A stretch of 64,000 nt of DNA from Kiritimatiellia bacterium (lineage in GTDB: Bacteria > Verrucomicrobiota > Kiritimatiellia > JAAZAB01). The stretch covers positions 64,001 through 128,000 of the forward strand of contig JAXGPF010000006.1 of assembly GCA_040767085.1 (NCBI GenBank), in the 5' to 3' direction. Positions 21,002 through 64,000 of this stretch are shown here, piece by piece (position 1 is the stretch's first letter; every line of letters starts with the position of its first letter). The notes beneath the pieces were generated by a model. It saw only the letters and a list, made by a program, of their open reading frames with translations. It had not been told where the DNA came from and did no database searches. The position numbers and the translations under genes were made by a program.

Positions 21002-22881
21002 AGCGAAATGTGGATCAAGGTTGGACGCCCGTGCGGACAGGTATAGGGCATGGCCGTCCGAATCAGCTGTTCCAGCAGGGCGTCCACCTGCCTCTGGTCC
21101 AACGGCTGCGAAGCCTTCACCGCTGCATGGCAGGCGGCGCGCATCGCCTGTTCTTCGCGGGTGGCGCGTCTGGCATCCGCGATGGCGCCGGCGGCGGTGC
21201 CGGCGTCATCCAGGCGGGCGGCGATGGCCGCGATGATTTCCGACGGCGCGCCGGTTTCCAGGCAAGCCGGCACGGCGTCCACGACAAAAGCGTCCCCGCC
21301 GAATTCCGCGATACCGAACCCGATCCGCTGCAACAACGGCAGGCAGCGGCGGACGCGCGCCGCATCCGTCGGCGGCAATTCCAGCGTGACCGCGCTCAAC
21401 AGGGGTTGCGCCGCCACATTTTGCGTCTCGTATTCGCGGCGGAACCGCTCATACAACACCCGCTCGTGCGCCGCATGCGGGTCCAGCAGCGCCAGGCCGT
21501 CGGCGGTTTCCAGCACGGCATACCGGTTGCCGACAAATCCCAGCAACCGGTACCACGACCATGGCGCTCCGGCGGCGGCATCTTCCGTTGAACTGCGCAC
21601 AGTCACGGCAGCCGCCGGAATTTCACCGCCCGGCTGGGCCCCATTCGCCGGCGGCACGGCGGTTTTGCCGGGACAGGGCGTAACCCCGCCGATCGCCGTC
21701 AGCGGCAAGGCGATCGGACGGGGCGGCGCCCCGCCCACTCCCGCGCCCGTCCAGGGACGGGCCTGCATGGCTCGCAAAAACCGGTCCATGGCCGGGAGGT
21801 CAACGCCGGGCTGGTCCTGCCCGAGTGCCGGCGCCGGCGCCCCGGCGGACTGCGCCCCGGCGGGCGGCGACGGCAGGTCGGCCGTCTCCGCCCTTAAAGC
21901 TTCGGCCAGCGCGGCGACTATGCCGTTGCGCACCGCGGCGGAATCGCGGAACCGGACCTCTTTCTTGGTGGGATGTACGTTGACATCCACCATGCCGGGC
22001 TCCAGTTCCAGGAACAAGAACAACACCGGATGCCGGTCGGGCGGCAGCACTCCCTGGTAGCCGGCGCGGATGGCTGCATACAAAACCGGCGCGCCGGCGG
22101 GCCGGCCGTTGACGTAAAGGTACTGCTCCCCGCGATCGCCGCGGCCGGCCGCCGGCAATCCCGCATAACCCGCGATGGATAAGCCCGGGTGGCGGTAGCG
22201 CACCGGCCGCAGGTTTTCCAGCGGCAGCGCGGGAAACAGCTCCCGCAGCCGCTCCGCCAATTCCGACTGCGCCGGCAGGGTGTAAATCCGGCGGCGGTCG
22301 GCGGTCAGGGTAAATCCCGTTTCCGGCCTTGCCAGGGCAGCCGTGATGAAAGTGCGGCGCACATGGTCGTTTTCAGTCGGCGCCGACCGCAGAAACTTGC
22401 GGCGGGCAGGCACGTTGAAGAAGAGGTTGCGGACTTCGATCACCGTGCCCGGCGCGCCGCCCGCTTCGCGCACATCCTGGATCTTGCCGGCGGCCATGGT
22501 GATTTCCGTGCCCGCCACGCTGTCGGCCGGCCGGGTATGCAGGCGGAACCGCGCAACGGCGGCAATGGCGGCCAGGGCCTCGCCCCGGAATCCCATGGTC
22601 CGGATACGTTCAATATCGGCCGCATCCTGAATCTTGCTCGTAGCGTGGCGTTCAATGGCCAGGAGGGCGTTGTCCCGGGTCATGCCGACGCCATTATCGG
22701 CCACCCGCACCAGGGTGCGCCCGCCGTCGGCCACTTCCACATCCACCTGGGTGGCGCCGGCATCCAGGGCGTTTTCCAGCAGTTCCTTCAAGACGGAAGC
22801 CGGGCGCTCGACAACTTCGCCGGCGGCGATCTGGTTGATCACATGGTCCGGCAGAACATGAATATTTCCGGCGTCGGTCAT
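20968..22881 (-). CDS. mutL: DNA mismatch repair endonuclease MutL
   Basis: IAAGEVVERP, ENALDAGA, HATSK, GFRGEAL, DVNVHPTK, DPHAAHERVLYE, CPHGRP. Confidence 0.97.
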   Translation of the reverse strand: MTDAGNIHVLPDHVINQIAAGEVVERPASVLKELLENALDAGATQVDVEVADGGRTLVRVADNGVGMTRDNALLAIERHATSKIQDAADIERIRTMGFRGEALAAIAAVARFRLHTRPADSVAGTEITMAAGKIQDVREAGGAPGTVIEVRNLFFNVPARRKFLRSAPTENDHVRRTFITAALARPETGFTLTADRRRIYTLPAQSELAERLRELFPALPLENLRPVRYRHPGLSIAGYAGLPAAGRGDRGEQYLYVNGRPAGAPVLYAAIRAGYQGVLPPDRHPVLFLFLELEPGMVDVNVHPTKKEVRFRDSAAVRNGIVAALAEALRAETADLPSPPAGAQSAGAPAPALGQDQPGVDLPAMDRFLRAMQARPWTGAGVGGAPPRPIALPLTAIGGVTPCPGKTAVPPANGAQPGGEIPAAAVTVRSSTEDAAAGAPWSWYRLLGFVGNRYAVLETADGLALLDPHAAHERVLYERFRREYETQNVAAQPLLSAVTLELPPTDAARVRRCLPLLQRIGFGIAEFGGDAFVVDAVPACLETGAPSEIIAAIAARLDDAGTAAGAIADARRATREEQAMRAACHAAVKASQPLDQRQVDALLEQLIRTAMPYTCPHGRPTLIHISLQELNRKFGRE

Positions 22882-22886
22882 ATGCG

Positions 22887-23030
22887 GAAAGTGTCCGGTG
22901 TTCAGTGTTCGGTGTTATACGGAAAATTCTCATACGAAGACACCCAGGCGCCAAGGAAGAATCTCTCGGTTTTCGTGGCTTCGCGTGAGATTATCTGCTC
23001 CGGCTTTGTGCCTTTGCCCCTTTGTGCCTT
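22887..23030. repeat. gtgttca/gtgttcg 7-mer end motif, TCTCA...TGAGA hairpin and ctttgtgc/ctttgccc run
   Basis: Combines the left-end motif of the 11086 element with the architecture seen at 4260-4380. Confidence 0.65.
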
Positions 23031-23062: not shown

Positions 23063-24094
23063 TCATGTGCCGCCGGGCGGCGGTGCGCCGGCATGCAGGC
23101 CCGCCGCCGGCCTTTCCGGCAGCGGCACGGCGCGGATGCCGGTTAAAAAGCAGCGGATGGCGCCCAGGGGCAACCCCAGATCGGTCCGCAGCGGCACCAT
23201 GCTCCAGGGCAGGCTGCTGCGCGCCAGGCTGATCAAATCGGACTGCTCGGACTTCAGGGAAACATCCAGGAAGGAAGCCGCCCACATGTCGAAATTGCGG
23301 CCGCGGCCCCGGGCGTCGCGATGGGGGCGGGCGGCGAAATACATCGCCGGGATTTCCGCGCCCAGCGCCGGCACGGCATCGCGCTCCCGGCTGAAATTGA
23401 GCCGGAAAGGCACCAGATCGCCTTCGGTGTAAATATACACCGGCGTCTCCGGATCGAAGGCGGCCAGTGATTGGTCGTTGTGGTAGTTGGCGTGCAGGAT
23501 TTTCAGGAAACGCGAAACCTCGCGGCCCTGGCGCGCCAGATCTGCCGCGCCGACCAGGTTGGTGCTGACGGTATTAAACAGGTAATCGTGGCAGGCATAA
23601 TCCAGCGCGCCGGTTTCGACATTATAAATTTCGAGGTTATCCAGGAATTTACGCCGGCACAACAGGCTGATCCGCTGCTTCGAGCGTTTGACGAACAACA
23701 CGGCGTTGAGGTCGGGCATGGTCAGCACCGCCGTAATGCGGTTGTAAATCTGCACCATGCCGCGCTGGGCTTCGGCGCCTTCCGCCCCCGTGCTCAATAC
23801 GAATTCCACCAGGCAGGCCGGGCGGGCGGCGCCGTCCGGACCCGGCCAGCGGCCTTCCACGGCGGTGACCTGGGCATCGGCCAGTTGCTTGAGTTCCAGC
23901 CCCAGCAGGCGGTAAGCCACGGAATAATCCATGCGCACGGCCGGCTTTTCCGGCTGGAACCGCCGGTGCACCCCGGCCGTGTACTCATCCTCCGCGCCCC
24001 GCGCGGCGCCGGCCGCCAGCGCGGCCAGGATGACGGCCAGGACGGCGCGGCTACGCCCCGTCCAGGATAGGCGTTTGCAACGACAAGGATTCAT
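23063..24094 (-). CDS. Hypothetical exported protein
   Basis: 343 aa, signal peptide (AVLAVILAALAAGAARGA), host-like codon usage; no motif recognised. Confidence 0.7.
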   Translation of the reverse strand: MNPCRCKRLSWTGRSRAVLAVILAALAAGAARGAEDEYTAGVHRRFQPEKPAVRMDYSVAYRLLGLELKQLADAQVTAVEGRWPGPDGAARPACLVEFVLSTGAEGAEAQRGMVQIYNRITAVLTMPDLNAVLFVKRSKQRISLLCRRKFLDNLEIYNVETGALDYACHDYLFNTVSTNLVGAADLARQGREVSRFLKILHANYHNDQSLAAFDPETPVYIYTEGDLVPFRLNFSRERDAVPALGAEIPAMYFAARPHRDARGRGRNFDMWAASFLDVSLKSEQSDLISLARSSLPWSMVPLRTDLGLPLGAIRCFLTGIRAVPLPERPAAGLHAGAPPPGGT

Positions 24095-26793: not shown

Positions 26794-26804
26794 TTTGTAT
26801 ACAG
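26794..26804. promoter_or_regulatory. Probable GntR/FadR-family operator (TGTATACA palindrome)
   Basis: TTTGTATACAG lies 10 nt before the gntR ATG; matches the TTGTATACAA-type boxes of FadR-subfamily regulators. Confidence 0.55.
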
Positions 26805-26814
26805 TATTCAATCA

Positions 26815-27462
26815 ATGAGCGCCATTGACCAGTCGCTGCTGACCGCGCGGGTGTACGAGCACCTCCGGGAACGCATTGTCAACAAGACCTTCCCCGCCGG
26901 CGCGCGGCTGGCGGAGGAAACCATCTCCGCCGAGTTGGAAGTCAGCCGCACCCCCGTGCGCGAAGCCCTGCACCGCCTGACGCAGGAAGGCTTTGTTGTT
27001 TACGCGCCCCGGCGCGGCTGCCGCGTCAAACCGCTCAGCTGCCGGGAAGTCGAGGATATTTTCGAATTGCGCTCCATCCTGGAGCCGCTGGCTTTGCGGG
27101 AAGCCTGGCCCCGCATCACGCCAGCGGATATCGCGCGCCTGGAAACCCGGCTGGCGGAACTGGACCGCATATCCGCCGGCGGCCAGTCCCAGGCGGCCCT
27201 GGCCGCCGACGACGATCTCCACGACCTGTTTTGCCAGCGCTGTTCCAACCGCTACCTGCGCGAATATCTGCGCCACCTGATCCAGTTGAGCCGCCCTTAC
27301 CGCAGTTTCGGCGCCGGCGCCCGCGCGCACCTGCGTCAATTGCACCGGCAGCGCAAGCAAATCCTGGCGGCGCTGCGCGCCGGCCGGAAGGAACTGGCCG
27401 GACAATTGCTGCAACGTCACATCCGCGCGGGACAACAGGAAATTTTATCGCGTTTGGCATGA
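26815..27462 (+). CDS. GntR-family (FCD) transcriptional regulator
   Basis: VYEHLRERI..AGARL.E..ELEVSRTPVREAL HTH; FCD-like C-terminus. Confidence 0.92.
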   Translation: MSAIDQSLLTARVYEHLRERIVNKTFPAGARLAEETISAELEVSRTPVREALHRLTQEGFVVYAPRRGCRVKPLSCREVEDIFELRSILEPLALREAWPRITPADIARLETRLAELDRISAGGQSQAALAADDDLHDLFCQRCSNRYLREYLRHLIQLSRPYRSFGAGARAHLRQLHRQRKQILAALRAGRKELAGQLLQRHIRAGQQEILSRLA

Positions 27463-27472
27463 GGCAAAAAAC

Positions 27473-28150
27473 ATGCAGACCAACCGGCATGACTTGGTGG
27501 ATTTGAACGCCCAGGGCCTGGCCATGGCCCTGCACAGCCTGGCGCCGGTCAGCGGCGGCGCCGCGGCCCTGGCGTACATGCGCCGCCTGATCCAGGGCGG
27601 CACGGACCGCCCGTTGCCGGGCATTGTGCGGCGCGGCGAGCCGGAGCTGCCGCCGGATGCCGTCGCCGTGGGGTTCAGCAGTCCCGTGGCGACGCAGGGC
27701 GCGCGCCGGCGGGCGGCCGCCGTGGTCCGCCCGGCCGGGATCGCCCGGCAAACCACGCCCTACACCGTGTTCCAATTGCCGTTCGCGGGCCGTTCGCCCG
27801 CCCTGCGCGCGGCGCTGGCCATCCGGCGGATTTTCGCCGGCCAGTCCAGCATCGGCATCTGGGGGTCAGCCGCCTTGGAAATTTACACCGGCCTGCCTTT
27901 TACGCATGCCGCCTCCGACATAGACCTGGTGCTGCGGGGCGTCCGCGCCGGCGAAATCCGCGCGACCGTGGCAGAGATTGACCGCGCGGCCGGCGCCGCG
28001 GGAGTGCGGGCGGATGTCGAAATTACGCTCCGCTCCGGCATGGGCATCAATGCCCGGGAATACCTGTCGGAGGCGCCGATGCTGCTGGCGAAAAGCCTGC
28101 GCGCCGTGGGATTAATGCCCCGGGCGGCGGCGCTGCGGGCGCTGGCGTGA
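27473..28150 (+). CDS. mdcG: Malonate decarboxylase holo-ACP synthase (phosphoribosyl-dephospho-CoA transferase)
   Basis: RHDLV, IVRR, WGSAALEIYTG, SDIDL, ADVEI, LLAKS; operon context. Confidence 0.85.
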   Translation: MQTNRHDLVDLNAQGLAMALHSLAPVSGGAAALAYMRRLIQGGTDRPLPGIVRRGEPELPPDAVAVGFSSPVATQGARRRAAAVVRPAGIARQTTPYTVFQLPFAGRSPALRAALAIRRIFAGQSSIGIWGSAALEIYTGLPFTHAASDIDLVLRGVRAGEIRATVAEIDRAAGAAGVRADVEITLRSGMGINAREYLSEAPMLLAKSLRAVGLMPRAAALRALA

Positions 28151-28195
28151 TGCCGGCGCGGGCGGGCAACCAAAATAAAAATTAATGGTTTAACC

Positions 28196-29101
28196 ATGTC
28201 CAAAATAAATCCAATATCTGCAACATTGCCAGCGGACGGGCCCGGCTGGATTGCGGAAATCGCCGTCCGGGCCATGCTGCTGGAAGCCGCCGCCACTCCC
28301 AAGCCGGGATTGGTGGACCTGGAAAACAGCGGCGCGCATGCGGACATGAATTATTTCACGTTCCTGCGCGGCACGGCCGCCCTGGCGCCCTGGATGCAGC
28401 GGCTGGCGCAGCGGGGCTGGGATCATGCCGGCAGCCTGCCAGCGCTGTTCGCCGCGCTGCGCCCGCTCGGCCGGGCCGCGGAAAAGGCCATGCTGCGCGC
28501 CACGGGCAATGTCAACACGCAGCGCGGCCTGGTGTTTTCCGTGGGGCTGGCCTGCGGCATCGCCGGCCGCCTGGCGCGCACGGAGGGCTGCATCACGGCC
28601 GCGCGGCTTTGCCGGCAGATGGCGGCGTCCGCCCGCGGCCTGTGCGCGCGGGAATTGCAGGGGCTGCCCGCTGCGGCGCCGGGCCGGCGTTTAACGCCGG
28701 GCGAACGGGCCTTCCGCCGGCATGGCGCGGCCGGGGTGCGCGGCGAGATCGAAAAAGGACTGCCCCTGGTGCGCCGGCAAGGCCTGCCGGCGCTGCGCCT
28801 GGCGCTGCGCCGGGGCTGCACGATCAACGACGCCGCGCTGCACGCGCTGGTCGGCATCCTGGAGAAGATTGTTGACACCACCATCCTGCACCGGCACAAT
28901 CCGCGCGTCATGCGACAGGCGCAAAGCGCGGCGCGCGCCATCCTCGCGGCGGGCAGCGTTTTTACGGAAGCCGGGCGCCGGCTTTTAAGGAACACCGGCG
29001 CGGAGTTCACTGCGCAAAACATCAGTCCGGGCGGCGCGGCCGATCTGCTGGCGCTGACCCTGGCCTGTCACTACTGGGAAAGCGAGGTCAAGCTGCAATG
29101 A
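28196..29101 (+). CDS. mdcB: Triphosphoribosyl-dephospho-CoA synthase (CitG/MdcB)
   Basis: TPKPGLVD..SGAHADM, ATGNVNTQRG, GVRGE, DTTILHR, SPGGAADLLA. Confidence 0.93.
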   Translation: MSKINPISATLPADGPGWIAEIAVRAMLLEAAATPKPGLVDLENSGAHADMNYFTFLRGTAALAPWMQRLAQRGWDHAGSLPALFAALRPLGRAAEKAMLRATGNVNTQRGLVFSVGLACGIAGRLARTEGCITAARLCRQMAASARGLCARELQGLPAAAPGRRLTPGERAFRRHGAAGVRGEIEKGLPLVRRQGLPALRLALRRGCTINDAALHALVGILEKIVDTTILHRHNPRVMRQAQSAARAILAAGSVFTEAGRRLLRNTGAEFTAQNISPGGAADLLALTLACHYWESEVKLQ

Positions 29102-29217
29102 CGACATTATTAACCGGTATTTCCGTCACCATCCTGGGCATGACGGTGACCTTCGTCGGCCTGGCGGGATTATGGGGCGCCATTACAATCATCGGGATAA
29201 TCGTCAACCGCCGGTAG
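29098..29217 (+). CDS. 39-aa OadG-like single-TM subunit of the Na+-transporting decarboxylase
   Basis: Below the ORF-track cutoff: MTTLLTGISVTILGMTVTFVGLAGLWGAITIIGIIVNRR*. ATGA overlap with the mdcB stop; OadG-type GxxxTxxGMxxxFxxL; sits directly before the beta subunit. Confidence 0.8.
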   Translation: MTTLLTGISVTILGMTVTFVGLAGLWGAITIIGIIVNRR

Positions 29218-29244
29218 AGTTGCTTTCAATTGCGGAGCTTATTT

Positions 29245-30384
29245 ATGCATGGATTACTGGAAAGTTTTGCGCGGTTCGGCGCCGGCACGGGATTTGCCGC
29301 TTTCACCTGGGGGCATGGCGTCATGCTGGCCATTGCCGGCTTGTTGCTGTACCTGGCCATCGTCAAAAAATTCGAGCCGCTGCTCCTGCTGCCGATCGGA
29401 TTCGGCATGCTGCTGGCCAACCTGCCCATCGGCGGCCTGATGGACGCGCCGCGCGACGGCGCCCTGGGCGGCCTGCTGTGGTACCTTTACCAGGGAGTGA
29501 AACTGGGGATTTATCCGCCGCTGATTTTCCTCGGTATCGGCGCCATGACGGATTTCGGCCCGCTGCTGGCCAATCCGAAAACGCTGCTGCTGGGCGCGGC
29601 GGCGCAATTCGGCATTTTCGGAACGTTTTTAGGCGCGCTGGCCATGGGGTTCACCCCCAGCGAATCGTCTTCCATCGGCATCATCGGCGGCGCCGACGGC
29701 CCGACCGCGATCTTCCTCACCGCCCGCCTGGCGCCGCACCTGCTGGGCGCGGTGGCGATCGCCGCGTACTCGTACATGGCGCTCGTGCCGATTATCCAGC
29801 CGCCGATCATGAAACTGCTGACCACGGCCCGGGAACGCGCCGCGCCCATGGCGCAGTTGCGCGAGGTTTCCCAGCGTGAAAAAATCATTTTCCCCGTGGC
29901 CGCCACCATCCTGGTGTGCCTGCTCGTGCCGGCGGCCGCGCCGCTGGTAGGCATGCTGATGCTGGGCAATCTGCTCCGCGAGTGCGGCGTAACCGAGCGG
30001 CTGAACCAGACGGCCCAGCATGAACTGATCAATATCGTCACCATTTTCCTGGGCCTCACCGTCGGCGCCACCACCGGCGCGGAATATTTTCTGCGCTGGC
30101 AGACAATCGGCATCATCGTGCTCGGCCTGCTGGCCTTCGCCATGGGCACGGCCGGCGGCGTCCTGCTGGGCAAGGCAATGTATTACCTGACTGGCGGCAA
30201 GGTTAACCCCCTGATCGGCGCCGCCGGCGTTTCCGCCGTGCCGATGGCCGCGCGGGTGGTGCAGAAGGTGGGCCAGCAGGCCAATCGGCAGAATTACCTG
30301 CTGATGCATGCCATGGGGCCGAATGTCGCCGGCGTAATCGGGTCGGCCCTGGCCGCGGGAATGTTGCTGTCGTTGTTCGGATGA
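29245..30384 (+). CDS. madB: Na+-transporting carboxybiotin decarboxylase beta subunit (OadB/MadB/GcdB family)
   Basis: [71 protein letters not shown]. Confidence 0.95.
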
Positions 30385-30394
30385 AAGGAAAAAC

Positions 30395-30874
30395 ATGACG
30401 CTTAATAAAGATGTGCTCATCGAATTGATGCAAAAAGTCCGCGAGAGCGGCATCCGGGAATTGATCGTCACTCACGACCGCGTGGAAATCCGGACGGGGG
30501 AACCAATCGCGGCCGGGCGCGTTTTGCCGGCAACCTCCGCCCCCGCTCCAGTCCCAGCCGCCGCGGCAGGGCCGCTCGCGGCCGATGCCCCGGCGGCGCC
30601 CGCGGCTGATGCCGCGCCGGGCAAGACCGCGGAGGCCGTGGCGGCGCCCATTCCCGGCATGGTTTTCGTGGCGCCGGGCCAGGACCTCAACCAGCGGCCG
30701 CTGCCCGGCCCCGGGGCCGCCGTGCGGGAAGGCGATGTGGTCGCCCTGGTCGAGGCCATGAAAATGTTCAACGAGATATACGCCCCGGCTGCGGGCGTGA
30801 TTGACCGGATTGCCGCCGGTAACAAGACCATGGTGAAAGTCGGCGATCCCATCCTCTTCATCCGGCCGGACTAG
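30395..30874 (+). CDS. Biotin carboxyl carrier protein (AccB/MadF-like)
   Basis: EAMKM biotinylation motif, Ala/Pro linker, AccB-like N-terminus. Confidence 0.92.
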   Translation: MTLNKDVLIELMQKVRESGIRELIVTHDRVEIRTGEPIAAGRVLPATSAPAPVPAAAAGPLAADAPAAPAADAAPGKTAEAVAAPIPGMVFVAPGQDLNQRPLPGPGAAVREGDVVALVEAMKMFNEIYAPAAGVIDRIAAGNKTMVKVGDPILFIRPD

Positions 30875-30908
30875 CCTGCCGCGCCGGCACCGGGAGGGCC
30901 GGCATGCC

Positions 30909-32669
30909 ATGACGATCAACCAGAGTTTTCTTGAAAGCATTTTCGGCGCGCCAGCCGGCACTCCGGCGGCGACGGCCGCCCGGCCGGCCGCCCCGCGGGA
31001 GGCATCTGCGCCGGCAACCGGCTGGAACAAGCTGCGCCAGAACTACTGCGCGCGGCTGGCGCGGGCCGCCCCCATTGCCGGCGGCGCCAAACTGGTGGAT
31101 TCCGCGCGGATCACGGAACTGCTGCAGGCGGTGATCGAGCCGGGCGACCTGGTGGCGCTGGAAGGCAACAACCAGAAACAGGCCGACTTCCTGGCCCGCG
31201 CGCTGGTCCGGCTGAATCCCGAACGGATACACGACCTGCACATGGTGCAATCCGTGCTGGCCTTGCCGGAACACCTGGACCTCTTCGAAAAAGGTATCGC
31301 GCGCAAGGTGGATTTCTGTTATTCCGGACCGCAAGCCGCCCGCCTGACGGAACTGTTGGAAAACCGCCGGATCGAAATCTGCGCCATCCACACCTACCTG
31401 GAGCAATACGCCCGGTACTTCGTGGATTTGACGCCGCGCGTGGCGCTGGTGGCCGCCGATTATGCCGATCCCCAGGGAAACCTCTATACCGGCTACAACA
31501 CCGAGGATACGCCCGTGCTGTGCGAAGCCGCCCACTTCAAGGCCGGGCTGGTGATCGCCCAGGTCAACGCCATCCGCGACGATCTGCCGCGCGTGGATGT
31601 GCCGGGCGGCTGGGTGGATTTCGTCGTGACGGCGGACCGTCCCTACTATATCGAACCGCTCTTCACCCGCGATCCGCAAGCCATTACCGACACCCAAATC
31701 CTCATCGCCATGCTCTGCCTGAAGGGGATTTACGCCCGTTACGGCGTGCAAACCCTCAACCATGGCGTCGGCTTCAACACGGCGGCCATCGAATTGCTGC
31801 TGCCGACCTACGGCGCGGAACTGGGTTTGCAGGGCAAAACCTGCTCGCATTTCATGCTCAACCCCCATCCCACGCTCATCCCCGCCATCGAATCCGGCTG
31901 GGTGCGGAGCGTTTATTCGCCCGGCGGGGAACTGGGCATGGAAAACTACGTGCGCGCCCGGCCGGACGTTTTCTTCGTCGGCCCCGACGGCTACATGCGC
32001 TCCAACCGCGCCTTCGCCCAGACCGCCGGGCTGTACGGCATTGACATGTTCGTCGGCTCCACCCTGCAGATCGACCAGTACGGCAACAGTTCCACGGCCA
32101 CCGCGCGGCGTATCGCCGGCTTCGGCGGCGCGCCGAACATCGGCTGCGACGCCCCCGGCCGCCGCCACGCTTCGCCCGCCTGGCAGGCCGCCGGCGCCGA
32201 ATGCCGGTTCCAGCGCGATTTGATCGGGTCCATGCCCCGCGGCAAGAAACTCGTGGTGCAGGCCGTGGAGACTTTTGCCGAGGGCATGCGTCCCGCCTTC
32301 GTCGAAAAACTCGACGCCTGGGCCCTGGCCGAGAAATACGGTTTCCAGCAGCCGCCGGTGATGATTTACTCCGACAACCTGACGCACATCGTCACCGAAG
32401 AAGGCATCGCCAGCCTCCACCAATGCGCCACCCTGGCCGAACGCATGGCCGCCGTCAGCGCGGTGGCCGGCTATACCGAAATCGGGGCGCGCGTTACCGC
32501 GCGGCAGCGGCAGGATTTGCGCGACCGGGGCATTGTGCAAACGCCGGCGGACCTGGGCATCGATCCGGCCCGCGCCAATCACGAACTGCTGGCGGCTCGC
32601 AACATGCGCGACCTGGTCCAGTGGTCGGGCGGCTTGTATGATCCGCCGGGACGGTTCCGTAACTGGTAA
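30909..32669 (+). CDS. mdcA: Malonate decarboxylase alpha subunit (acetyl-S-ACP:malonate ACP transferase)
   Basis: LEGNNQKQADFL, IHTYLE, NTEDTP, LNHGVGFNTAAIELLLPT, GFGGAPN, WSGGLYDPP. Confidence 0.96.
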   Translation: MTINQSFLESIFGAPAGTPAATAARPAAPREASAPATGWNKLRQNYCARLARAAPIAGGAKLVDSARITELLQAVIEPGDLVALEGNNQKQADFLARALVRLNPERIHDLHMVQSVLALPEHLDLFEKGIARKVDFCYSGPQAARLTELLENRRIEICAIHTYLEQYARYFVDLTPRVALVAADYADPQGNLYTGYNTEDTPVLCEAAHFKAGLVIAQVNAIRDDLPRVDVPGGWVDFVVTADRPYYIEPLFTRDPQAITDTQILIAMLCLKGIYARYGVQTLNHGVGFNTAAIELLLPTYGAELGLQGKTCSHFMLNPHPTLIPAIESGWVRSVYSPGGELGMENYVRARPDVFFVGPDGYMRSNRAFAQTAGLYGIDMFVGSTLQIDQYGNSSTATARRIAGFGGAPNIGCDAPGRRHASPAWQAAGAECRFQRDLIGSMPRGKKLVVQAVETFAEGMRPAFVEKLDAWALAEKYGFQQPPVMIYSDNLTHIVTEEGIASLHQCATLAERMAAVSAVAGYTEIGARVTARQRQDLRDRGIVQTPADLGIDPARANHELLAARNMRDLVQWSGGLYDPPGRFRNW

Positions 32670-32707
32670 TCCAGATTCAGGTTAATTTATCCGGCATGGG
32701 AGGGAAA

Positions 32708-33022
32708 ATGGCTGTCGCCGAATTTACGCTTGCATTTACCGCCGCCAGGATCAAACCGCTGGCGGCCGCATGGTCGCACGCCGGCGTGGTTTCGTCCGGC
32801 GACCTGGAAGTTTTGATCAAGCCCGATGCCGGCAGCGGCCGGGCCGTGTTCCATGTCCGGACCAAGGCGGCGGGCTTCGAGGCCGTCTGGCGCCAGGTGC
32901 TCGAGCGCCTGACGCAGCGCCTGGAACTAGGCGATGTCCAGGTCTATATCAACGATAATGCCGCCACGCCGCCGGTAGTGGCGCGGCGAATTGAACAAGC
33001 CGTGCGGGAGGGCAGTGAATAG
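32708..33022 (+). CDS. mdcC: Malonate decarboxylase acyl carrier protein (delta)
   Basis: GVVSSGDLEVL prosthetic-group Ser motif; INDNAATPPVV; GGAGG RBS. Confidence 0.92.
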   Translation: MAVAEFTLAFTAARIKPLAAAWSHAGVVSSGDLEVLIKPDAGSGRAVFHVRTKAAGFEAVWRQVLERLTQRLELGDVQVYINDNAATPPVVARRIEQAVREGSE

Positions 33023-33048
33023 CGGTCGGAAGTGGTCGGCATCCGGGA

Positions 33049-33170
33049 TTCAGTGTTCGGGATTCCGGCGTAAAACCTTAACACCCTAAAACCTTAAAAC
33101 TTCCAAAACTTCAGTGTTCGGGTTTCCGGCGTAAAACCTTAAAACCCTAAAACCTTAAAACTTCCAAAAC
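33049..33170 (+). repeat. Two tandem 61-bp mini-copies of the 8-mer-array element inside the mdc operon
   Basis: ttcagtgttcggg(a/t)ttccggcgtaaaaccttaa(c/a)accctaaaaccttaaaacttccaaaac at 33049 and 33110 (2 mismatches). Confidence 0.85.
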
Positions 33171-33204
33171 GTGAGTTTGGGAGAATGTTCGGCGAGATGC
33201 ATGC

Positions 33205-34188
33205 ATGAATAAATCCAATTGGGAATCTTTACAGACACAGAGTTTCGCCCGCGCTTCCGCCCGCGCCCGCGCCCGGGGGATGCTGGACCCGGGCGCCTTC
33301 CGCGAAACCCTCGGCCCGCCGGCCATGCTCACCAGCCCGCATTTGCCGGTGCTGGGCGAGGTGGCGGAATTCGACGATGGGATGGTCGCCGGCGTCGGCC
33401 GGCTGGACGGCCGGCCGGTCTTCCTGGTTTCCATGGAAGGCGGTTTTTTCGGCGGCGGCATCGGCGAGGTCAACGGCGCCAAGATGTTTGCCGCCATCCG
33501 CCTGGCCGTGGAAACCTGCGCGGCGCTGGAACAACAGCATGGCGGATCCCTGCCGGATGGGCGCCGGCCGGCTGTGGTCATTTCCTTCGACACGGGCGGG
33601 GTGCGCCTGCACGAGGCCAATGCCGGCCTGCTGGCGCACGCGGAAATCATTGACGCCATCCAGGATGCCCGCGCTCAGGACGTGCCCTTGATTGCGCTGT
33701 GCGGCGGCCGCATCGGCGCCTTCGGCGGCATGGGATTTGTCATCATGGCCGCCGACGTCATCATCATGAACGAGCAGGGCCGTATCGGCCTGACGGGGCC
33801 GGAAGTGATCGAGCAGGAGATGGGGCCGGCGGAGTTCGACGCCTCCGACCGCGCCCTGGTCTGGCGCACCACGGGCGCCAAACACCGCTACATCATGGGT
33901 GATTGCGACTATCTCGTGGAAGACTCCATCGGCGCCTTTCGGCGCCAGGCGCAGGCCGTGCTGCGGCTGGACCGACCAACCATCGCCGGCATGCGCAAGA
34001 CCGGCGCCCCGGCGCTGGTCCGGCGCGAAAAGCAGCGCGTGGCGCTGGCCGCGCAAAATGGCATCAAGGATTCCGCGGACCTGTGGCGCCTGGCGGGCAA
34101 TCCCAACCCGGCGGCGCTGACGGAAATGCCGCTCGCAGAATTTTTGAAAAACGTGTCCCGGCTGCCGCCGCCGCCGATCCCGAATTGA
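33205..34188 (+). CDS. mdcD: Malonate decarboxylase beta / carboxyltransferase subunit (MdcD/MadC)
   Basis: SPHL, FDDG, GGGIGEVNGAK, DTGGVRLHEAN, FGGMG, GLTGPEVIEQE. Confidence 0.92.
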   Translation: MNKSNWESLQTQSFARASARARARGMLDPGAFRETLGPPAMLTSPHLPVLGEVAEFDDGMVAGVGRLDGRPVFLVSMEGGFFGGGIGEVNGAKMFAAIRLAVETCAALEQQHGGSLPDGRRPAVVISFDTGGVRLHEANAGLLAHAEIIDAIQDARAQDVPLIALCGGRIGAFGGMGFVIMAADVIIMNEQGRIGLTGPEVIEQEMGPAEFDASDRALVWRTTGAKHRYIMGDCDYLVEDSIGAFRRQAQAVLRLDRPTIAGMRKTGAPALVRREKQRVALAAQNGIKDSADLWRLAGNPNPAALTEMPLAEFLKNVSRLPPPPIPN

Positions 34189-34214
34189 TTGAAAGCATTT
34201 TTTACACCAATATC

Positions 34215-35141
34215 ATGCAAAATTCAGACATGAACTTTATCGGCAAGGGGCGCGCGGCCATCGAACTGCTGGTGGACGCAGGCAGCTTCCAAGAAAACAT
34301 TGTCGGGGCCGCATCGTTCGACCCGGCATACGCCCAGCCGGCGGTGGTCGGCACGGCGCAGTTGGACGGCCGGCCGGCGACCGTGATCGCCAACGACGCC
34401 CGTAAAAGCAACCCGCGTTTCAAGGTGGTGTACAGCGGCGTGATCGGCCTCGAGGAAGCCTACAAGATGGCCGAGGCGGTGTATGCCTCCATCGAGGCCG
34501 ACCGCGCCCGGCCGCCGGCGGAGAAACGTCCCATCCTGCTGGTGGTGGACACGCCGGGCAACGCGCCCGGCAAGCTGGAGGAAATCATCGGGATGAACAA
34601 GGCCACCGTTGCCTACCAACTGGCCCTGTCCGAAGCGCGCAAGGCCGGGCATCCGTCGGCGGCGCTGGTGGTGGGCCGCGGCATCAGCGGCGCGTTTCTC
34701 TGCCACGGCCTGCACGCCGGCTCGGTCTTCAGCCTGTCCGAGCGCTACGGGACGATGGTGCATGTCATGCCGCTCACCAGCATTGCCCGGATCACCAAAA
34801 TCCCGCTGGAAGAATTGCAGCGGCATGTGGTTGACAATCCGGTCTTCGCTTCCGGCCCGGCCTTTGTGCACAAGCTGGGCGGCATCAATGAGATCGTGGA
34901 CGACATGGCGCAAGCGCGGCCGATGATCATCCAGGCCATCGCCGCCCAGCGCGCGGCATTTCCCCGCGGGGAAGAGCACGGCTTCGGCCCCGTCGGCCGG
35001 ATGCGGCTGGGCATTGAACGCGGCGGCCGGCCGGCCATCGGCGCGGTGCTGCGTCGGATGCGCCTGGAGGCGCAAGACGCCCTGCAGGCGCTGGGCCTGG
35101 CCGTATCAATCCCGGCCGCCGGACCCGGCCCCGGCGCATGA
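34215..35141 (+). CDS. mdcE: Malonate decarboxylase gamma / carboxyltransferase subunit (MdcE/MadD)
   Basis: GVIGLEE, KRPILLVVDTPG, ARKAGHP, GRGISGAFLCHG, VHVM. Start moved to ATG 34215 (or 34230). Confidence 0.88.
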   Translation: MQNSDMNFIGKGRAAIELLVDAGSFQENIVGAASFDPAYAQPAVVGTAQLDGRPATVIANDARKSNPRFKVVYSGVIGLEEAYKMAEAVYASIEADRARPPAEKRPILLVVDTPGNAPGKLEEIIGMNKATVAYQLALSEARKAGHPSAALVVGRGISGAFLCHGLHAGSVFSLSERYGTMVHVMPLTSIARITKIPLEELQRHVVDNPVFASGPAFVHKLGGINEIVDDMAQARPMIIQAIAAQRAAFPRGEEHGFGPVGRMRLGIERGGRPAIGAVLRRMRLEAQDALQALGLAVSIPAAGPGPGA

Positions 35142-56337: not shown

Positions 56338-58215
56338 CTAAAGTTTATGAATCCGCCGCACACTGCCGGCCTGCCCGAATTTGCGGTAAACTTTCGCGGC
56401 CCAGTTGAATGCCCGATCCACCCGTCCGACCAGGGTGATGGGCCGCGGAAACAGCAAGGCCAGGTTCTGCGGCAGGTCGCCGATCCGTAAAATGCCGGGC
56501 AACTCGGGCGTGTCGGGATGCGCATGACTGGCCGGCAGATCGGCCAGAATCACCCCGGCGATTGCCGGATCGAGCAAGGCCGCGTAAACCGCCAGCACGG
56601 CGGTCCGGCCTTCGCCGTAAAGCGTAATCGGTCCGGCAAACGGCTGCTGCCGGACAATTTCGATGCCGTCCAGCAGGTCCGACACCTGGCGCTCGGGCAG
56701 GGACTGGCCCAGCAAGGGATAACTGCGCCGCAGCGTCCAGAGATACCCCGGGCCGACCGAAGTCGCCGCGGTATTGCGGACTTCGACGCAGGCGGTGGCA
56801 TGATTTGCGGTAAGCGCCATTGGCCGGCCGGCGCCGAAATGCCCGGAACGCAGGGACTCCGGCAAGGCAAACGCGACCACCGGCACGCGCGCGGCGGCGC
56901 CGGGGCAGCCGGTTCGCACCCGCAGTTCCAGGTTGTCCGCAGTCCGGAAAACATGGCTGGTAAATTTGATGCCCGCGCGGCTTACGCCGTCCGCGCGGCA
57001 TTCGACCAACTCGGGGCGGGCAGGGAGAGCGATGTTGCGGAATGTCAATTGCCGCATCTTTTTAATGGTTGCCCGCTGCCAGGCCGTCCATGGCTTGCAG
57101 GCGCCCACCGGCGGGGCCGGCGCCCTGAAAGGCAGCAGTTCATCCGCCCGGCGCATATTGTCATGGCGCGGCGGCTGGCCGTTGAACACGCGCAAAATCC
57201 TCTCCGATTCTACCCGGTCGGTCACGTCTTCGGCCACCGGACGCGGATCGTCTTGCAGGTGCCGGTTAAACCACTCGAAAATGGCGCGCCGCTGCTTGGG
57301 CGTGTAACCGTGCGGGGCGACATCTTCCGCCAGGGCCACCTTGTCCGCCGCGCCCAGCCGGGCGTACTGGTGCTTGATCCGCAAATACACGTCCCGGAAG
57401 GCGTAAGGCCGCCAGAGCATATCTTCGGTGCAGGAAGCTATCAGCAGGGGCCGCGGCGCGATCAAGGCGCCGAGATCCGGCGTGCACCACTGGTGATAAT
57501 TGATCCAGAAGGCGCAGTCGCAATGGCCGTCCGTGGCGCGGTCGGCGATCAATTGCTCGATGCTGCCGGTCTGGCAGGACGGCGCCACGCACTTGACCCG
57601 CTCGTCCGCCGCGCCCAGGAACCAGGACATCGCGCCGCCGCCGGAATTGCCGGTGACGCCCAGGCGGCCTGGATCCACATCCCGGCGCGCGACCAGGTAA
57701 TCCAGCGCGCGCATGGCGTTCCACACTTCCATGCCGGCGGGGGTGTAACCCCGGCTGATCCAGTCCCAGCGCCCCAGGCGGTGCGTGCCATGGTGGACGC
57801 CCTGCGCTTCGCCAAGCTGGATCGGATCCAGGATCAACGCCACATAGCCATGCTGGGCGAACCAGCGCGGATGCGCCTGGTATGTCGGGCTGGCCTTGCC
57901 GATGGCATGCCCGCACAAATAAAGCACCGCCGGCAATCGGCCGCCGATTTTTTCCGGCCGGTAAAGATTGCCCGGCACATACGCCCCCGCCAGACTCTGG
58001 AAATGGATTTTCTCGATGACATAGCCCGGCCGCTTCAAACATCCGGTGACCACGGCCTTGAGCGGCGCGCGTTGCGGCAACGGCAGGAGCCCCAGCATTT
58101 CCAGCCATTGGGCGCGGCGCGCGGCCAGACTGCGCTGCCACGCCGCCGCCGCCGCGGGATTAATTAACGAAGAGGACGAAACCCGCCGCGCCTGATTTTT
58201 TATGGATTGATACAT
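56338..58215 (-). CDS. Alpha/beta-hydrolase (acetylxylan-esterase-like, two-domain)
   Basis: GNLYRP, LCGH, RALDYL..R.DVD, GVTGNSGGG nucleophile elbow, IAPRPLLI; GGAGG RBS before ATG 58215. Confidence 0.85.
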   Translation of the reverse strand: MYQSIKNQARRVSSSSLINPAAAAAWQRSLAARRAQWLEMLGLLPLPQRAPLKAVVTGCLKRPGYVIEKIHFQSLAGAYVPGNLYRPEKIGGRLPAVLYLCGHAIGKASPTYQAHPRWFAQHGYVALILDPIQLGEAQGVHHGTHRLGRWDWISRGYTPAGMEVWNAMRALDYLVARRDVDPGRLGVTGNSGGGAMSWFLGAADERVKCVAPSCQTGSIEQLIADRATDGHCDCAFWINYHQWCTPDLGALIAPRPLLIASCTEDMLWRPYAFRDVYLRIKHQYARLGAADKVALAEDVAPHGYTPKQRRAIFEWFNRHLQDDPRPVAEDVTDRVESERILRVFNGQPPRHDNMRRADELLPFRAPAPPVGACKPWTAWQRATIKKMRQLTFRNIALPARPELVECRADGVSRAGIKFTSHVFRTADNLELRVRTGCPGAAARVPVVAFALPESLRSGHFGAGRPMALTANHATACVEVRNTAATSVGPGYLWTLRRSYPLLGQSLPERQVSDLLDGIEIVRQQPFAGPITLYGEGRTAVLAVYAALLDPAIAGVILADLPASHAHPDTPELPGILRIGDLPQNLALLFPRPITLVGRVDRAFNWAAKVYRKFGQAGSVRRIHKL

Positions 58216-58229
58216 TGCTTCCTCCGATT

Positions 58230-58400
58230 TTACTCCACCGTAACGGTTACCGCATCGTATAGAACCATGCCGCCCGGGTAATGCAAAATGCCGTCCATGG
58301 GATAGTCCACGGCAAAATACACATGATACAGACCGCGCGGCAGCGCGGCGGATGCATTGATCCCGCCCGGCGCCGCCGGCAACATGGCGGCCAGGACCAT
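58230..58400 (-). pseudogene. Short ORF resembling an isolated C-terminal beta-domain fragment of a secreted protein
   Basis: GLYHVYFAVDYPMDGIL...YDAVTVTVE* is protein-like, but the upstream frame degrades toward the MITE at 58516. Confidence 0.35.
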
Positions 58401-58515
58401 GGCCGCGGACACCTTGCCGAATCTCCGCCATTTTGCCGGCAATCCTCCTTGCCGCCGGCAGCCAATGCCGGACCCACACCCGTCAATGCGCGAATTCAGA
58501 TTCCCTGAAGAGGCT

Positions 58516-58642
58516 GGAAAATGATTTGGCATTTTCTTGATGGAGCCGGGACGCCTGCCCGCGGATTGGCAGTCTGGCCCTCGTCCCGTTTACGGGCGAC
58601 TTGGTCCGCCAAAGCGCGCAAAAATGCTCCAAGTCATTTTCC
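58516..58642. mobile_element. MITE-like element, second copy (inverted, with an internal insertion)
   Basis: GGAAAATGATTTGGC ... CCAAGTCATTTTCC; the reverse complement aligns to 50689-50792 including aaacgggacg.gggcc and tcccggct.catcaa. Confidence 0.7.
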
Positions 58643-58809
58643 GGTATGGGCGTGAAAACATCCCCGCACGCAAGGGCGCCCCGGGAAATCTGATGTCGAG
58701 TTTTTGCATAATCTTTCTTTCCCGCCACGCAAGGTTGAATGGGTGGGCCTTTCGATATTGGTTCAGTTAATTGCTCGACAGCCACAAGCTCTCTCGCCGA
58801 TTTGGCCGT

Positions 58810-59076
58810 GCGCAGAGATTGGCATCGCGCTTAATCAAGTCCATGTTCAGGATTGTCATTTCCTCTATAATGGCAAGGGATCTATTGTGGTTTTCGAAGA
58901 ATTGCCGGGCAATGGCAACGCGCTTTTGCCAGGGGTATATCTAGCGTGTGCGCTTGCCCTTATTGAGCGGGAAGTAGGGGCTGCTTATTGCGCGTACCGA
59001 TCACCTTCACCGATCCACGCATCTCAGGGCCAAGCCGCCCAAGTTCCTCTTGAAGTTTTTGCACCGTCCACTGCAT
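58810..59076 (-). pseudogene. Decayed small gene, possibly an IS-associated accessory ORF
   Basis: MQWTVQKLQEELGRLGPEMRGSVKVIGTRNKQP / YFPLNKGKRTR*IY..KRVAIARQFFENH / LAIIEEMTILNMDLIK; needs two frameshifts and a stop to read through. Confidence 0.4.
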
Positions 59077-59159
59077 TGCACACTCTGACTCATAATATTT
59101 CAAATAGTTATCCCTAGCATTGCTTTCTCAATTATCCATGTATTAATAATATTGTTTCC

Positions 59160-60428
59160 TCACCAGAATTTGTGGGTGATTACCGGTTCGGGCAATTGCC
59201 CAAGGGTATGATATAGCGCCATTTCCGCGCCATGAAAAGTTCTGAAGCCATAAGATCGTTTGGTAACCACTCGAGCTTTATTGTTCAAGCCCTCGGTTGC
59301 GCCAGTAAAAACCTCGTTTCTGGCTCTGATCCAGTTCAAAAGCAGCTCCTCGTGTTTAGCAATGGTTTTAGCCGCCTTAATGATTGGCGCAATGCGGCTA
59401 CGACAGGCGCGCTTGACCCATGCCTGGAGATAATTACGCGCCCAGGTTGGGCTGTGATAGCTCCAAAAATGCTGAAAGCTTTCCTTGAACAAATAGGCGC
59501 GGCCGGTTTGCAGTCTTGTGCCCAATATCCGATCAAGCATTTCGCGAGCTTTGCCGCGCACGCGGGTTTTGCGGCGCAGCAAGGTCCAGCGCATTTTCTT
59601 GAGTTTTTGCTTGGCCGCCGGACGCGCTGTCATCGCCGCCATATCCCGGCGCCGGACCTCGTCCACGGCGGCATTCAAGGTTTGCACGACATGGAAGCGG
59701 TCAATCATGTGGCAACCGTGGCTGAGGCTCGCAGCAATGACTTTCAGATAAGGTCGCCACATATCGCTACATATATGTCGAATGCCGGCCAGCACGGGTT
59801 TTCCCAAAGATTGCAACCCTTTACGCAGCGCGGCCGCCCGGCGGGTTTGGCCGACCCAGAGCAATCGGCGGCATTGCGCATCAATCTGATAGATCAAGGT
59901 CAGATAGTTCTTGCTCTTTTTACCGTTGCCTACGTGGAGTTCATCAACACCAATCGCCGTTATATTGGCCAATTCCCGGTGCGCCAAGCCCCATTCCACC
60001 ATCCACTCGACCGACCGATAAACCGCCTGCCAACTGACTTTGAAAATCAGCGCCGTCTCTTTCCAGGACAACCTCCGCGCCCAGTTCCCCAAAAAAAGCA
60101 TCAGCGCCTTGCTGTAGGGTCGTTTGCCATCGCTCCAAGGCAGCGCTTCCACCACCACGCCATGTTCGGGGCAATTTACCCGGCGCGGACTATAATGCAA
60201 AAAAGCCGGCACATTCAAAATGGGCACAAACGCCCATATCCGTTCAGGCAGAGTGTCGTATGTCGCCAGCGGTCGCCCGCAACGCGAGCAGCATGCCGCG
60301 CGTTGGCGATGCGGACGAATGCTTATATCCACTTTCCATTGGCCGCGACGATCCAAAACCATACAAGTTTCCTGATAAATAAAACGTTTCAAAGGTTGCA
60401 AACGATTCAAAATTGTTTTAAGTTTCAC
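59160..60428 (-). CDS. ISL3-family transposase
   Basis: CxxC/CxxH zinc finger, GVDE, SDMW, DRFHV, EGLNNK, SYGFR; GTG start after GGAGG; stop inside the IRR. Confidence 0.95.
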   Translation of the reverse strand: MKLKTILNRLQPLKRFIYQETCMVLDRRGQWKVDISIRPHRQRAACCSRCGRPLATYDTLPERIWAFVPILNVPAFLHYSPRRVNCPEHGVVVEALPWSDGKRPYSKALMLFLGNWARRLSWKETALIFKVSWQAVYRSVEWMVEWGLAHRELANITAIGVDELHVGNGKKSKNYLTLIYQIDAQCRRLLWVGQTRRAAALRKGLQSLGKPVLAGIRHICSDMWRPYLKVIAASLSHGCHMIDRFHVVQTLNAAVDEVRRRDMAAMTARPAAKQKLKKMRWTLLRRKTRVRGKAREMLDRILGTRLQTGRAYLFKESFQHFWSYHSPTWARNYLQAWVKRACRSRIAPIIKAAKTIAKHEELLLNWIRARNEVFTGATEGLNNKARVVTKRSYGFRTFHGAEMALYHTLGQLPEPVITHKFW

Positions 60429-61752: not shown

Positions 61753-61873
61753 TTTCTTAATTGATATTTTCTCCGCTGTTTTTCCCAGGCTGTTCCAGTG
61801 TAAATAATAAACGGTTCAGTAGCATACCATAGAAAACATAAAGTGTTGGAATGACCCCCGGCGTCATAACATA

Positions 61874-62680: not shown

Positions 62681-62801
62681 CTGTGGGACAGCCATGTGTA
62701 CGAAGGGGGGGGGCATAGTGGAATATTACAAATATACCGGAACTGAACTTCTGGATAACAACTCATATTTATCAGGAAATAACGGCTTTTCAGACCATAT
62801 A

Positions 62802-63974: not shown

Positions 63975-64000
63975 TATAAACGAAATGCGATTAATTTATA

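What the first reader, a model, noticed from the sequence alone, without database searches (positions are those of the whole stretch)
26815..35141. Na+-pumping, biotin-dependent malonate decarboxylase operon in an unexpected host
Seen: gntR-mdcG-mdcB-(oadG-like)-madB-biotin carrier-mdcA-mdcC-mdcD-mdcE are co-oriented with short gaps or overlaps. Known: the common Klebsiella/Pseudomonas enzyme is soluble and biotin-free, whereas Malonomonas rubra couples the reaction through a biotin protein (MadF) to a membrane MadB Na+ pump. The beta subunit here keeps the OadB functional motifs GGADGPT and [17 protein letters not shown]. Inference: this organism conserves energy from malonate to acetate + CO2 as a Na+ gradient, with a gene order different from M. 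rubra and in a probably PVC-lineage host where I know of no description.
Basis: partly seen in the sequence, partly recalled or inferred. Interest (0 to 1): 0.72.

Follow-up and report, generated by a model that had tools for sequence, protein, structure and literature searches.

The report
Malonate sodium pump with swapped parts
A sludge-dwelling Kiritimatiellia bacterium carries a complete gene set that likely turns malonate (or a close relative) into acetate and CO2 while pumping sodium, a known trick of Malonomonas rubra, but it uses a different membrane pump subunit and biotin carrier and has an altered substrate pocket.

Summary
The ten co-oriented genes are real. The host is a Kiritimatiellia (PVC) bacterium, likely an anaerobe. 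The carboxyltransferase pair is of the pump-linked Mad type, not the soluble Klebsiella/Pseudomonas type (tree 100/100; one motif separates 45 of 45 pump-clade from 57 of 57 other sequences). The 95%-complete genome has only this one pump subunit, and no oxaloacetate or methylmalonyl-CoA carboxyltransferase was found to claim it. A biotin-dependent, Na+-pumping malonate decarboxylase is therefore the best reading. Corrections: the membrane subunit is not MadB (182 bits against a cut-off of 597; AU p=0.0001) but a general OadB/MmdB/GcdB-type beta with a tail-less OadG peptide. The biotin carrier has an AccB-like thumb insert. The priming ligase (MadH-like) lies on another contig after a rearrangement. 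No MadLM transporter was found. MdcA has Pro where 112 of 113 other loci keep the Phe under malonate C2, so the substrate could be a 2-substituted malonate. A general-type beta beside Mad genes also occurs in one Bacillota and one Nitrospiraceae genome. Verdict: new variant of a known system, nothing assayed. The scan's earlier notes held no match.

The parts
26795..26803 (+). Probable operator TTGTATACA (TKGT-2nt-ACMA spacing of the MdcY group) just upstream of gntR
   Evidence: 1 match in window, 0.07 expected, 5 of 100 shuffles reach 1; same core upstream of gntR in L010, L103, L119 but not seen in L107, L142; spacing rule from PMC4494728
26815..27462 (+). GntR/FadR-family regulator (GntR + FCD), likely MdcY/MatR-like repressor
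   Evidence: homologues of 27-40% identity beside many soluble mdc operons
27473..28150 (+). MdcG-type holo-ACP synthase
   Evidence: TIGR03135 passes
28196..29101 (+). MdcB/CitG-type triphosphoribosyl-dephospho-CoA synthase
   Evidence: PF01874 254.8 bits; just under TIGR03132 cut-off; single copy in genome
29098..29217 (+). 39-aa OadG-like membrane peptide without the cytoplasmic tail
   Evidence: PF04277 27.9 > 27; hydrophobic throughout; conserved in relatives
29245..30384 (+). Carboxybiotin decarboxylase / Na+ pump beta subunit of the general OadB/MmdB/GcdB type (not MadB), 379 aa
   Evidence: keeps 10 of 11 tested StOAD residues, Asn311 is His
30395..30874 (+). Biotin carrier (EAMKM) with a conserved N-terminal segment, Ala/Pro linker and an insert at the AccB thumb position
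30909..32669 (+). MdcA/MadA acyl-ACP:malonate ACP transferase; Phe312 equivalent is Pro338
32696..33022 (+). Malonate decarboxylase acyl carrier protein with the GVVSSGDLE serine loop (start may be the second ATG at 32708)
   Evidence: TIGR03130 passes; sequence
33049..33170 (.). 61-bp tandem duplication of a genome-wide intergenic element; not part of the machine
   Evidence: L010 has a 56-nt spacer here
33205..34188 (+). MadC-type carboxyltransferase subunit (database label MdcD)
34215..35141 (+). MadD-type carboxyltransferase subunit (database label MdcE), motif DTPGNAPG

Best explanation
The operon encodes a Malonomonas-type (Mad) malonate decarboxylase core plus a general-type membrane beta subunit, an OadG-like peptide and a biotin carrier, which together likely decarboxylate malonate to acetate and CO2 while exporting Na+. 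Inferred cycle: MdcB and MdcG put the phosphoribosyl-dephospho-CoA arm on the ACP; the MadH-like adenylating ligase encoded on contig C24 primes it with acetate; MdcA swaps acetyl for malonyl and releases acetate; the MadC/D pair moves the free carboxyl to the biotin of the carrier; the beta subunit decarboxylates carboxybiotin and pumps Na+. The OadG peptide has no tail, so it probably only stabilises beta, and the carrier probably shuttles freely or docks through its own N-terminal segment. Shown: genes, families, residues, phylogeny, co-occurrence, absence of rival partners in a 95%-complete genome. Inferred: every catalytic step, the ion, the substrate and the uptake route.
For: Single OAD_beta gene in the genome, inside this operon. 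No OadA (best TIGR01108 score 33.5 against 756.5). PF01039 finds only MdcD, MdcE and two AccA/AccD-sized genes. D+E tree: 22 pump-type rows against 10 soluble rows split at 100/100, and the window sits with the pump type; a fast tree of 102 rows agrees. The Gln100 position that contacts the malonyl group in soluble MdcE (PMC5534430) is Gln in 57 of 57 outside rows and Asn, as G-N-[AG]-P-G, in 45 of 45 pump-clade rows. Of 121 non-relative loci with an mdcE match, all 44 with a beta gene have pump-type MdcE and none of the 57 soluble-type loci has a beta. Beta keeps Asp203, Ser382 and Asn412, the Na+ ligands of StOAD (PMC7274780). MdcA keeps 8 of 10 pocket residues, including Arg341, Asn292 and Gln345. 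The block gamma-beta-carrier-A is kept in 6 relatives of 3 genera. The MadH-like gene is intact, follows mdcE in G001 and G015, and is present in 6 of 41 genomes, all of which carry this operon; its model has a PaaK-type adenylating fold. BirA homologue present. Rnf and a membrane pyrophosphatase are present, no heme-copper oxidase was found, and the best DNA holders are sludge and landfill metagenomes.
Against: Nothing was assayed, and no M. rubra sequence was available for direct comparison. NCBIfam labels MdcD/E 'biotin-independent', though it gives the same label to the subunits of MadB loci. Beta has His at Asn311, where Ala lowered StOAD activity by over 40%. MdcA has Pro for Phe312 and Val for Ile261. 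No MadL/MadM was found (tblastn; the family search rang in no control, so it proves little). The madH-like gene is detached from the operon. The F-type c subunit is closest to H+-type rings, so what uses a Na+ gradient is unsettled. G021 has the operon but no madH match (64% complete).
Confidence: 0.7

Rival explanations
1. Same biotin- and Na+-coupled machine, but the preferred substrate is a 2-substituted malonate (such as methylmalonate, giving propionate), alone or besides malonate.
For: Phe312 lies under the C2 methylene of bound malonate in P. aeruginosa MdcA (PMC5534430 section 11). It is Pro in the window and 6 of 6 clade loci, but Phe in 112 of 113 other loci. Three of five clade-specific MdcA changes (window positions 287, 338, 411) are at or four residues from listed pocket positions; MdcE has six clade-specific changes.
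Against: All polar ligands of both carboxylates are kept. The regulator and operator resemble those of malonate operons. No pocket geometry was computed, and Pro could be compensated. The Bacillota sister locus L206 keeps Phe.
Confidence: 0.15
2. The system decarboxylates malonate but is poorly coupled, moves H+ rather than Na+, or is decaying, so it conserves little energy.
For: Asn311-to-His in beta; madH detached; no transporter found; F-type c ring looks H+-type.
Against: All frames are intact in the window and conserved at 68-94% across relatives. The three Na+ ligands are kept. The His is shared by distant clade members. madH is intact in the three genomes where it is detached.
Confidence: 0.07
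3. The AccB-like carrier also hands malonate-derived carboxybiotin to the cell's acetyl-CoA carboxyltransferase (AccA/AccD), sparing ATP in malonyl-CoA synthesis, with the pump as overflow.
For: Every named near neighbour of the carrier that names an enzyme is an ACC carrier; best PDB hit is E. coli BCCP; it has an insert at the thumb position, which methylmalonyl-CoA decarboxylase and other carriers lack (PMC11926652).
Against: Only 76 bits against TIGR00531 (cut-off 115). A profile of the N-terminal 34 residues hits 1 of 88 AccB-length neighbours and neither of the genome's own AccBs. The insert is two residues longer than in AccB and differs in sequence. The genome has two separate accB-accC pairs.
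Confidence: 0.05
4. Two unrelated modules sit side by side: a soluble biotin-free MdcACDE, and a beta/gamma/carrier set serving another carboxyltransferase.
For: Database labels say 'biotin-independent'; beta's closest outside relatives (69-76%) are general-type betas, mostly labelled Bacillota where named.
Against: MdcD/E are pump-type by tree and motif; no other candidate carboxyltransferase; only a 26% FabD-like match for MdcH, the primer of soluble systems; linkage conserved across genera and in a Bacillota genome.
Confidence: 0.03

Closest known systems
Malonomonas rubra Na+-translocating malonate decarboxylase (Mad system, EC 7.2.4.4)
   Same: ACP transferase, ACP with its two modifying enzymes, MadC/D-type carboxyltransferase, biotin protein, OAD_beta-family pump, and a MadH-like ligase elsewhere in the genome. 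Scheme from PMC8085960 and PMC7274780 (passages); gene names recalled from Berg et al. 1997 (not seen).
   Different: Beta is not MadB (31-34% identity to MadB-type betas; fails TIGR03136; AU p=0.00014). Carrier is 159 aa with a thumb insert, against about 70 aa in MadB loci. An OadG-family peptide is present. No MadL/MadM found. madH is unlinked. MdcA Phe312 is Pro.
Soluble biotin-independent malonate decarboxylase MdcACDE (Klebsiella, Pseudomonas, Acinetobacter)
   Same: Homologous MdcA, ACP, MdcD, MdcE, MdcB, MdcG and a GntR-type regulator.
   Different: MdcE only 26-39% identical to soluble-type MdcE against 52-58% to pump-linked ones; lacks Gln100/Tyr102; no dedicated MdcH found; has carrier and pump.
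Oxaloacetate, methylmalonyl-CoA and glutaconyl-CoA decarboxylase Na+ pumps (OadGAB, Mmd, Gcd)
   Same: Beta of the same subfamily (TIGR01109; 420 bits to StOAD 6IVA) and a gamma/delta-like membrane peptide.
   Different: No OadA or MmdA/GcdA found; the gamma peptide lacks the cytoplasmic tail that binds the alpha subunit in StOAD (PMC7274780); the substrate is activated on an ACP.

Membership tests
Mad-type Na+-pumping malonate decarboxylase | MadA/MdcA ACP transferase with the malonate-binding residues | tested here: met
   TIGR01110 passes; 8 of 10 pocket residues identical, Ile261 is Val and Phe312 is Pro
Mad-type Na+-pumping malonate decarboxylase | ACP with modifiable Ser plus MdcB- and MdcG-type modifying enzymes | tested here: met
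Mad-type Na+-pumping malonate decarboxylase | MadC/D-type carboxyltransferase pair | tested here: met
   tree 100/100 with MadB-linked pairs; motif 45 of 45 against 0 of 57; two neighbours carry a source's MadD name
Mad-type Na+-pumping malonate decarboxylase | Biotin carrier protein and a biotin ligase | tested here: met
   EAMKM carrier in operon; BirA homologue on C24
Mad-type Na+-pumping malonate decarboxylase | Membrane carboxybiotin decarboxylase of the OAD_beta family with Na+ ligands | tested here: met
   PF03977 538.9 bits; Asp203, Ser382, Asn412 kept
MadB subfamily (TIGR03136) | Score over 596.9 and grouping with MadB | tested here: not met
   182 bits; AU test rejects one clade, p=0.000138
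Mad-type Na+-pumping malonate decarboxylase | Acetate:ACP ligase (MadH) to prime the ACP | tested here: inconclusive
   Intact 369-aa gene on C24, 56% to the gene after madD in a MadB locus, adenylating fold; the name MadH and its activity are recalled and assigned by position
Mad-type Na+-pumping malonate decarboxylase | MadL/MadM Na+/malonate symporter | tested here: not met
   no tblastn match with four queries; genome 95% complete
Mad-type Na+-pumping malonate decarboxylase | Avidin-sensitive, Na+-dependent decarboxylation and Na+ export | not testable with these tools
   needs biochemistry
Soluble biotin-independent MdcACDE | MdcE with Gln100/Tyr102 and membership of the soluble clade | tested here: not met
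Soluble biotin-independent MdcACDE | Dedicated MdcH malonyl-CoA:ACP transacylase | tested here: not met
   three MdcH-like queries find one 26% FabD-like gene, unlinked
AccB (TIGR00531) | Full-length score over 115.2, with homologous N-terminal domain and thumb | tested here: not met
   76.1 bits; thumb-position insert present, N-terminal homology not supported

The most novel reading that the evidence does not exclude
A rebuilt Mad lineage that replaced MadB/MadF with a general-type pump and a thumb-bearing carrier and also opened the MdcA pocket (Phe312 to Pro), making it the first ACP-based Na+ pump that conserves energy from a free 2-substituted malonate such as methylmalonate, without CoA.
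Probability: 0.15. Interest if true: 0.7.

Novelty: new variant of a known kind. Interest (0 to 1): 0.42.

Why it matters
Energy conservation by malonate decarboxylation has been worked out biochemically in essentially one organism (PMC8085960, PMC7274780). This locus shows that the soluble Mad core can be wired to an ordinary OadB/Mmd/Gcd-type pump and a different biotin carrier, so these Na+ pumps are more modular than the four textbook systems suggest. It gives a sequence rule (G-N-[AG]-P-G against Gln) that separates pump-linked from soluble malonate decarboxylases, which a current database labels alike as 'biotin-independent'. It also suggests that some Kiritimatiellia of anaerobic sludge gain energy from dicarboxylate decarboxylation. 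If the altered MdcA pocket changes the substrate, it would be a new energy-conserving reaction.

Tried and rejected
The Atlas held no entry for the MadH-like protein; fold prediction and search were used. PDB sequence searches found nothing for the MadH-like protein or the V-type K subunit; the K subunit shows residues that I recall as a Na+ signature, untested. Two RNA-library runs held short identical pieces across the operon and its neighbours alike, as contigs only, so they show no transcription. Promoter and terminator scan: 3 and 6 sites against 1.4 and 8.5 expected, uninformative. 'Carrier N-terminus is an AccB N-terminus' was tested alone and not supported. 'The clade is the deepest pump branch' (fast tree) was replaced by a nested position in the careful tree. 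A single origin of all general-beta Mad operons is neither shown nor rejected (AU p=0.115). Horizontal arrival is not visible in base composition: operon GC 0.64-0.72 (0.54 for the small peptide) against 0.62 for the contig. The spacer repeat was rejected as a functional part. PMC107221 and PMC3370838 are not held. Nine literature searches listed no description of a Mad system with a general-type beta or in Kiritimatiellia; the library lacks most subscription papers, including the primary M. rubra papers, and no supplements were read (Figure 1 supplement 1 of PMC7274780 aligns MadB with other betas and was not seen).
Full report
Observation. Ten + strand genes run from 26815 to 35141 with gaps of -4 to 45 nt, except 182 nt between the ACP and mdcD. 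That gap holds a 61-bp tandem copy of a genome-wide intergenic element. Curated families confirm MdcG, MdcA, the ACP, MdcD, MdcE and a Na+-decarboxylase beta subunit above their cut-offs; MdcB is just under its cut-off; the 39-aa ORF passes Pfam OAD_gamma. A TTGTATACA site at 26795, kept upstream of gntR in three relatives, fits the MdcY-group spacing described in PMC4494728 (passages).

Host. The nearest named mdcA locus (93%) is a Kiritimatiellia MAG with the same ten genes and the same flanking tolB, pal, tatA and M42 peptidase genes at 77-95% identity. The genome is 4.08 Mb and 95% complete. It has Rnf and a membrane pyrophosphatase; no heme-copper oxidase was found. Five runs in three studies hold half or more of the operon's words: sludge and landfill metagenomes, one study possibly the source. 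An anaerobic host is inferred.

Is the core soluble or pump-linked? NCBIfam calls MdcD/E 'biotin-independent', but gives the same label to the subunits of loci with true MadB, so the label does not decide. Identity does: among 74 named loci with an mdcE match, the 16 with a beta gene are 52-58% identical to the window's MdcE, and 57 of the 58 without are 26-39%. A careful tree of 32 chosen D+E rows splits 22 pump-type from 10 soluble rows at 100/100 with the window on the pump side; a fast tree of 102 rows agrees. In soluble MdcE, Gln100 and Tyr102 likely contact the malonyl group (PMC5534430: part 1 of 7, passages and section 11 read). That Gln is kept in 57 of 57 rows outside the pump clade, whereas 45 of 45 pump-clade rows read G-N-[AG]-P-G, closer to AccA's PGAYPG. 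Many of these rows are near-copies, so the counts are not independent events.

Whom does the pump serve? The genome has one OAD_beta gene, no OadA and, besides MdcD/E, only two AccA/AccD-sized carboxyltransferase genes. Its two other biotin carriers sit in accB-accC pairs. In the host's family, 6 of 24 sampled relatives have a beta gene, and in each it lies in this operon; one of them has a second beta elsewhere.

What differs from M. rubra. (1) Beta scores 182 against the MadB cut-off of 596.9. Its nearest outside relatives are 69-76% identical general-type betas, mostly labelled Bacillota where named, and an AU test on 31 rows rejects grouping it with MadB (p=0.000138). It keeps 10 of 11 residues tested in StOAD/KpOAD, including the Na+ ligands Asp203, Ser382 and Asn412; Asn311 is His (PMC7274780, passages and section 9). 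(2) The OadG peptide lacks the tail that binds the alpha subunit in StOAD. (3) The 159-aa carrier has a nine-residue insert where AccB has its seven-residue thumb and where carriers of MadB loci have none. Its best hits are AccB proteins, but its N-terminus alone does not match AccB N-termini (1 of 88), so an AccB origin is suggested, not shown. About ten clusters among 5.8 billion proteins are close to it. (4) The gene that follows madD in MadB loci, a 369-aa adenylating enzyme by fold that I take to be MadH (name recalled), follows mdcE in G001 and G015. In this genome, G002 and G003 it lies intact on another contig, here still beside the gene that follows it in G001. A rearrangement split it off. 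(5) No MadL/MadM was found; uptake is unexplained. (6) MdcA keeps all polar malonate ligands, but Phe312, under the C2 of bound malonate, is Pro in the window and 6 of 6 clade loci and Phe in 112 of 113 others.

Spread. Ten of 401 sampled genomes of the class match MdcE; seven are this pump type, all in one family and three genera, and three are soluble-type. Three of 401 phylum-wide genomes match at E <= 1e-40, all of this genus. Of 121 non-relative loci with an mdcE match, 42 have MadB, 2 a general-type beta (a Nitrospiraceae MAG and an unnamed metagenome contig of this clade), 20 pump-type loci show no beta (mostly short contigs) and 57 are soluble-type. Among 401 genomes of the phylum of a Christensenellaceae genome, four have pump-type MdcE: one with MadB, one with a general-type beta in the order gamma-beta-carrier-A-ACP-C-D-H, one with no beta in the operon, one cut by a contig end. 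That Bacillota locus is sister to the window's clade in the D+E tree (98/94), and the clade nests among MadB-linked loci (95/91), which suggests that MadB was replaced and that the operon came from Bacillota; no donor test was run. Whether the Nitrospiraceae case is a second swap is open (AU p=0.115).

Mechanism. Most likely (0.7): MdcB/G arm the ACP, the ligase acetylates it, MdcA exchanges acetyl for malonyl, MadC/D pass the carboxyl to the carrier's biotin, and beta/gamma decarboxylate carboxybiotin with Na+ export, as described for M. rubra (PMC8085960, passages). All steps are inferred from homology and context. What uses the gradient is unsettled: the F-type c subunit is nearest to H+-type rings and the V-type K subunit had no PDB match. 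Rivals: a 2-substituted malonate as substrate (0.15), weak coupling or H+ (0.07), carboxyl hand-over to ACC (0.05), two unrelated modules (0.03).

Novelty. It works like the Mad pump and meets the core membership tests, but fails the MadB and MadLM tests: a new variant of a known kind. Nine searches of the held library (listings seen) showed no description of this arrangement or of malonate decarboxylase in Kiritimatiellia, but the primary M. rubra papers were not available. The scan's earlier notes gave no match by words or by sequence. A specialist would find the swap and the pocket change worth testing, not startling: interest 0.42.

Noticed in passing
G000:C24:346046-347155 (L127:1501-2610), outside the window: Detached, intact MadH-like ligase gene between a mechanosensitive-channel-like gene and a Tad-pilus-like cluster; a transposase-like ORF lies about 2 kb upstream.
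   Followed up: yes
window 33049-33170 and about 22880-22910: Low-complexity dispersed intergenic element; 113 BLAST pieces across the genome. G002 has a different dispersed element inserted between mdcD and mdcE.
   Followed up: partly
protein P0251 (cluster of P0130): A carrier of this clade's type (38% to the window's) is labelled Candidatus Methanofastidiosa archaeon, MBN1785452.1. Its context could not be read; it may be a transfer to an archaeon or a binning error.
   Followed up: no
L087:8001-13632 and L193: A Christensenellaceae chromosome has pump-type madACD, madH and mdcG without beta or carrier in the operon; its only full beta is a general-type one in a gamma-carrier-beta-alpha cluster elsewhere, so one pump may serve two decarboxylases.
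   Followed up: partly
L105:8761-10380, L106:7642-10522, L018, L024: Divergent mdcA genes (56-59%) in two other Kiritimatiellia genomes and two Syntrophales MAGs, some without neighbouring mdc genes; L106 has Pro at Phe312 and His at Gln345, L105 Lys at Arg228. Possibly other substrates.
   Followed up: no
L017:4757-15161, L026, L043: Rhodobacter capsulatus, Breoghania and Prosthecomicrobium carry full MadB-type pump operons; the R. capsulatus beta scores 772.6 on TIGR03136.
   Followed up: partly
G000:C22:291000-299000 and 569000-578000: Two diverged copies of a multi-gene block (tmk, holB-like, aroQ, accB, accC and following genes) in one contig.
   Followed up: no
window 23063-24094 (-): 343-aa ORF with a signal-peptide-like start and no Pfam or NCBIfam match.
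   Followed up: no
window 58001-64000: GC drops from about 0.65 to 0.44 at the window's end, suggesting an acquired island.
   Followed up: no
L069:7406-7843: MadB-type loci often carry a HutP-like gene instead of a GntR regulator.
   Followed up: no
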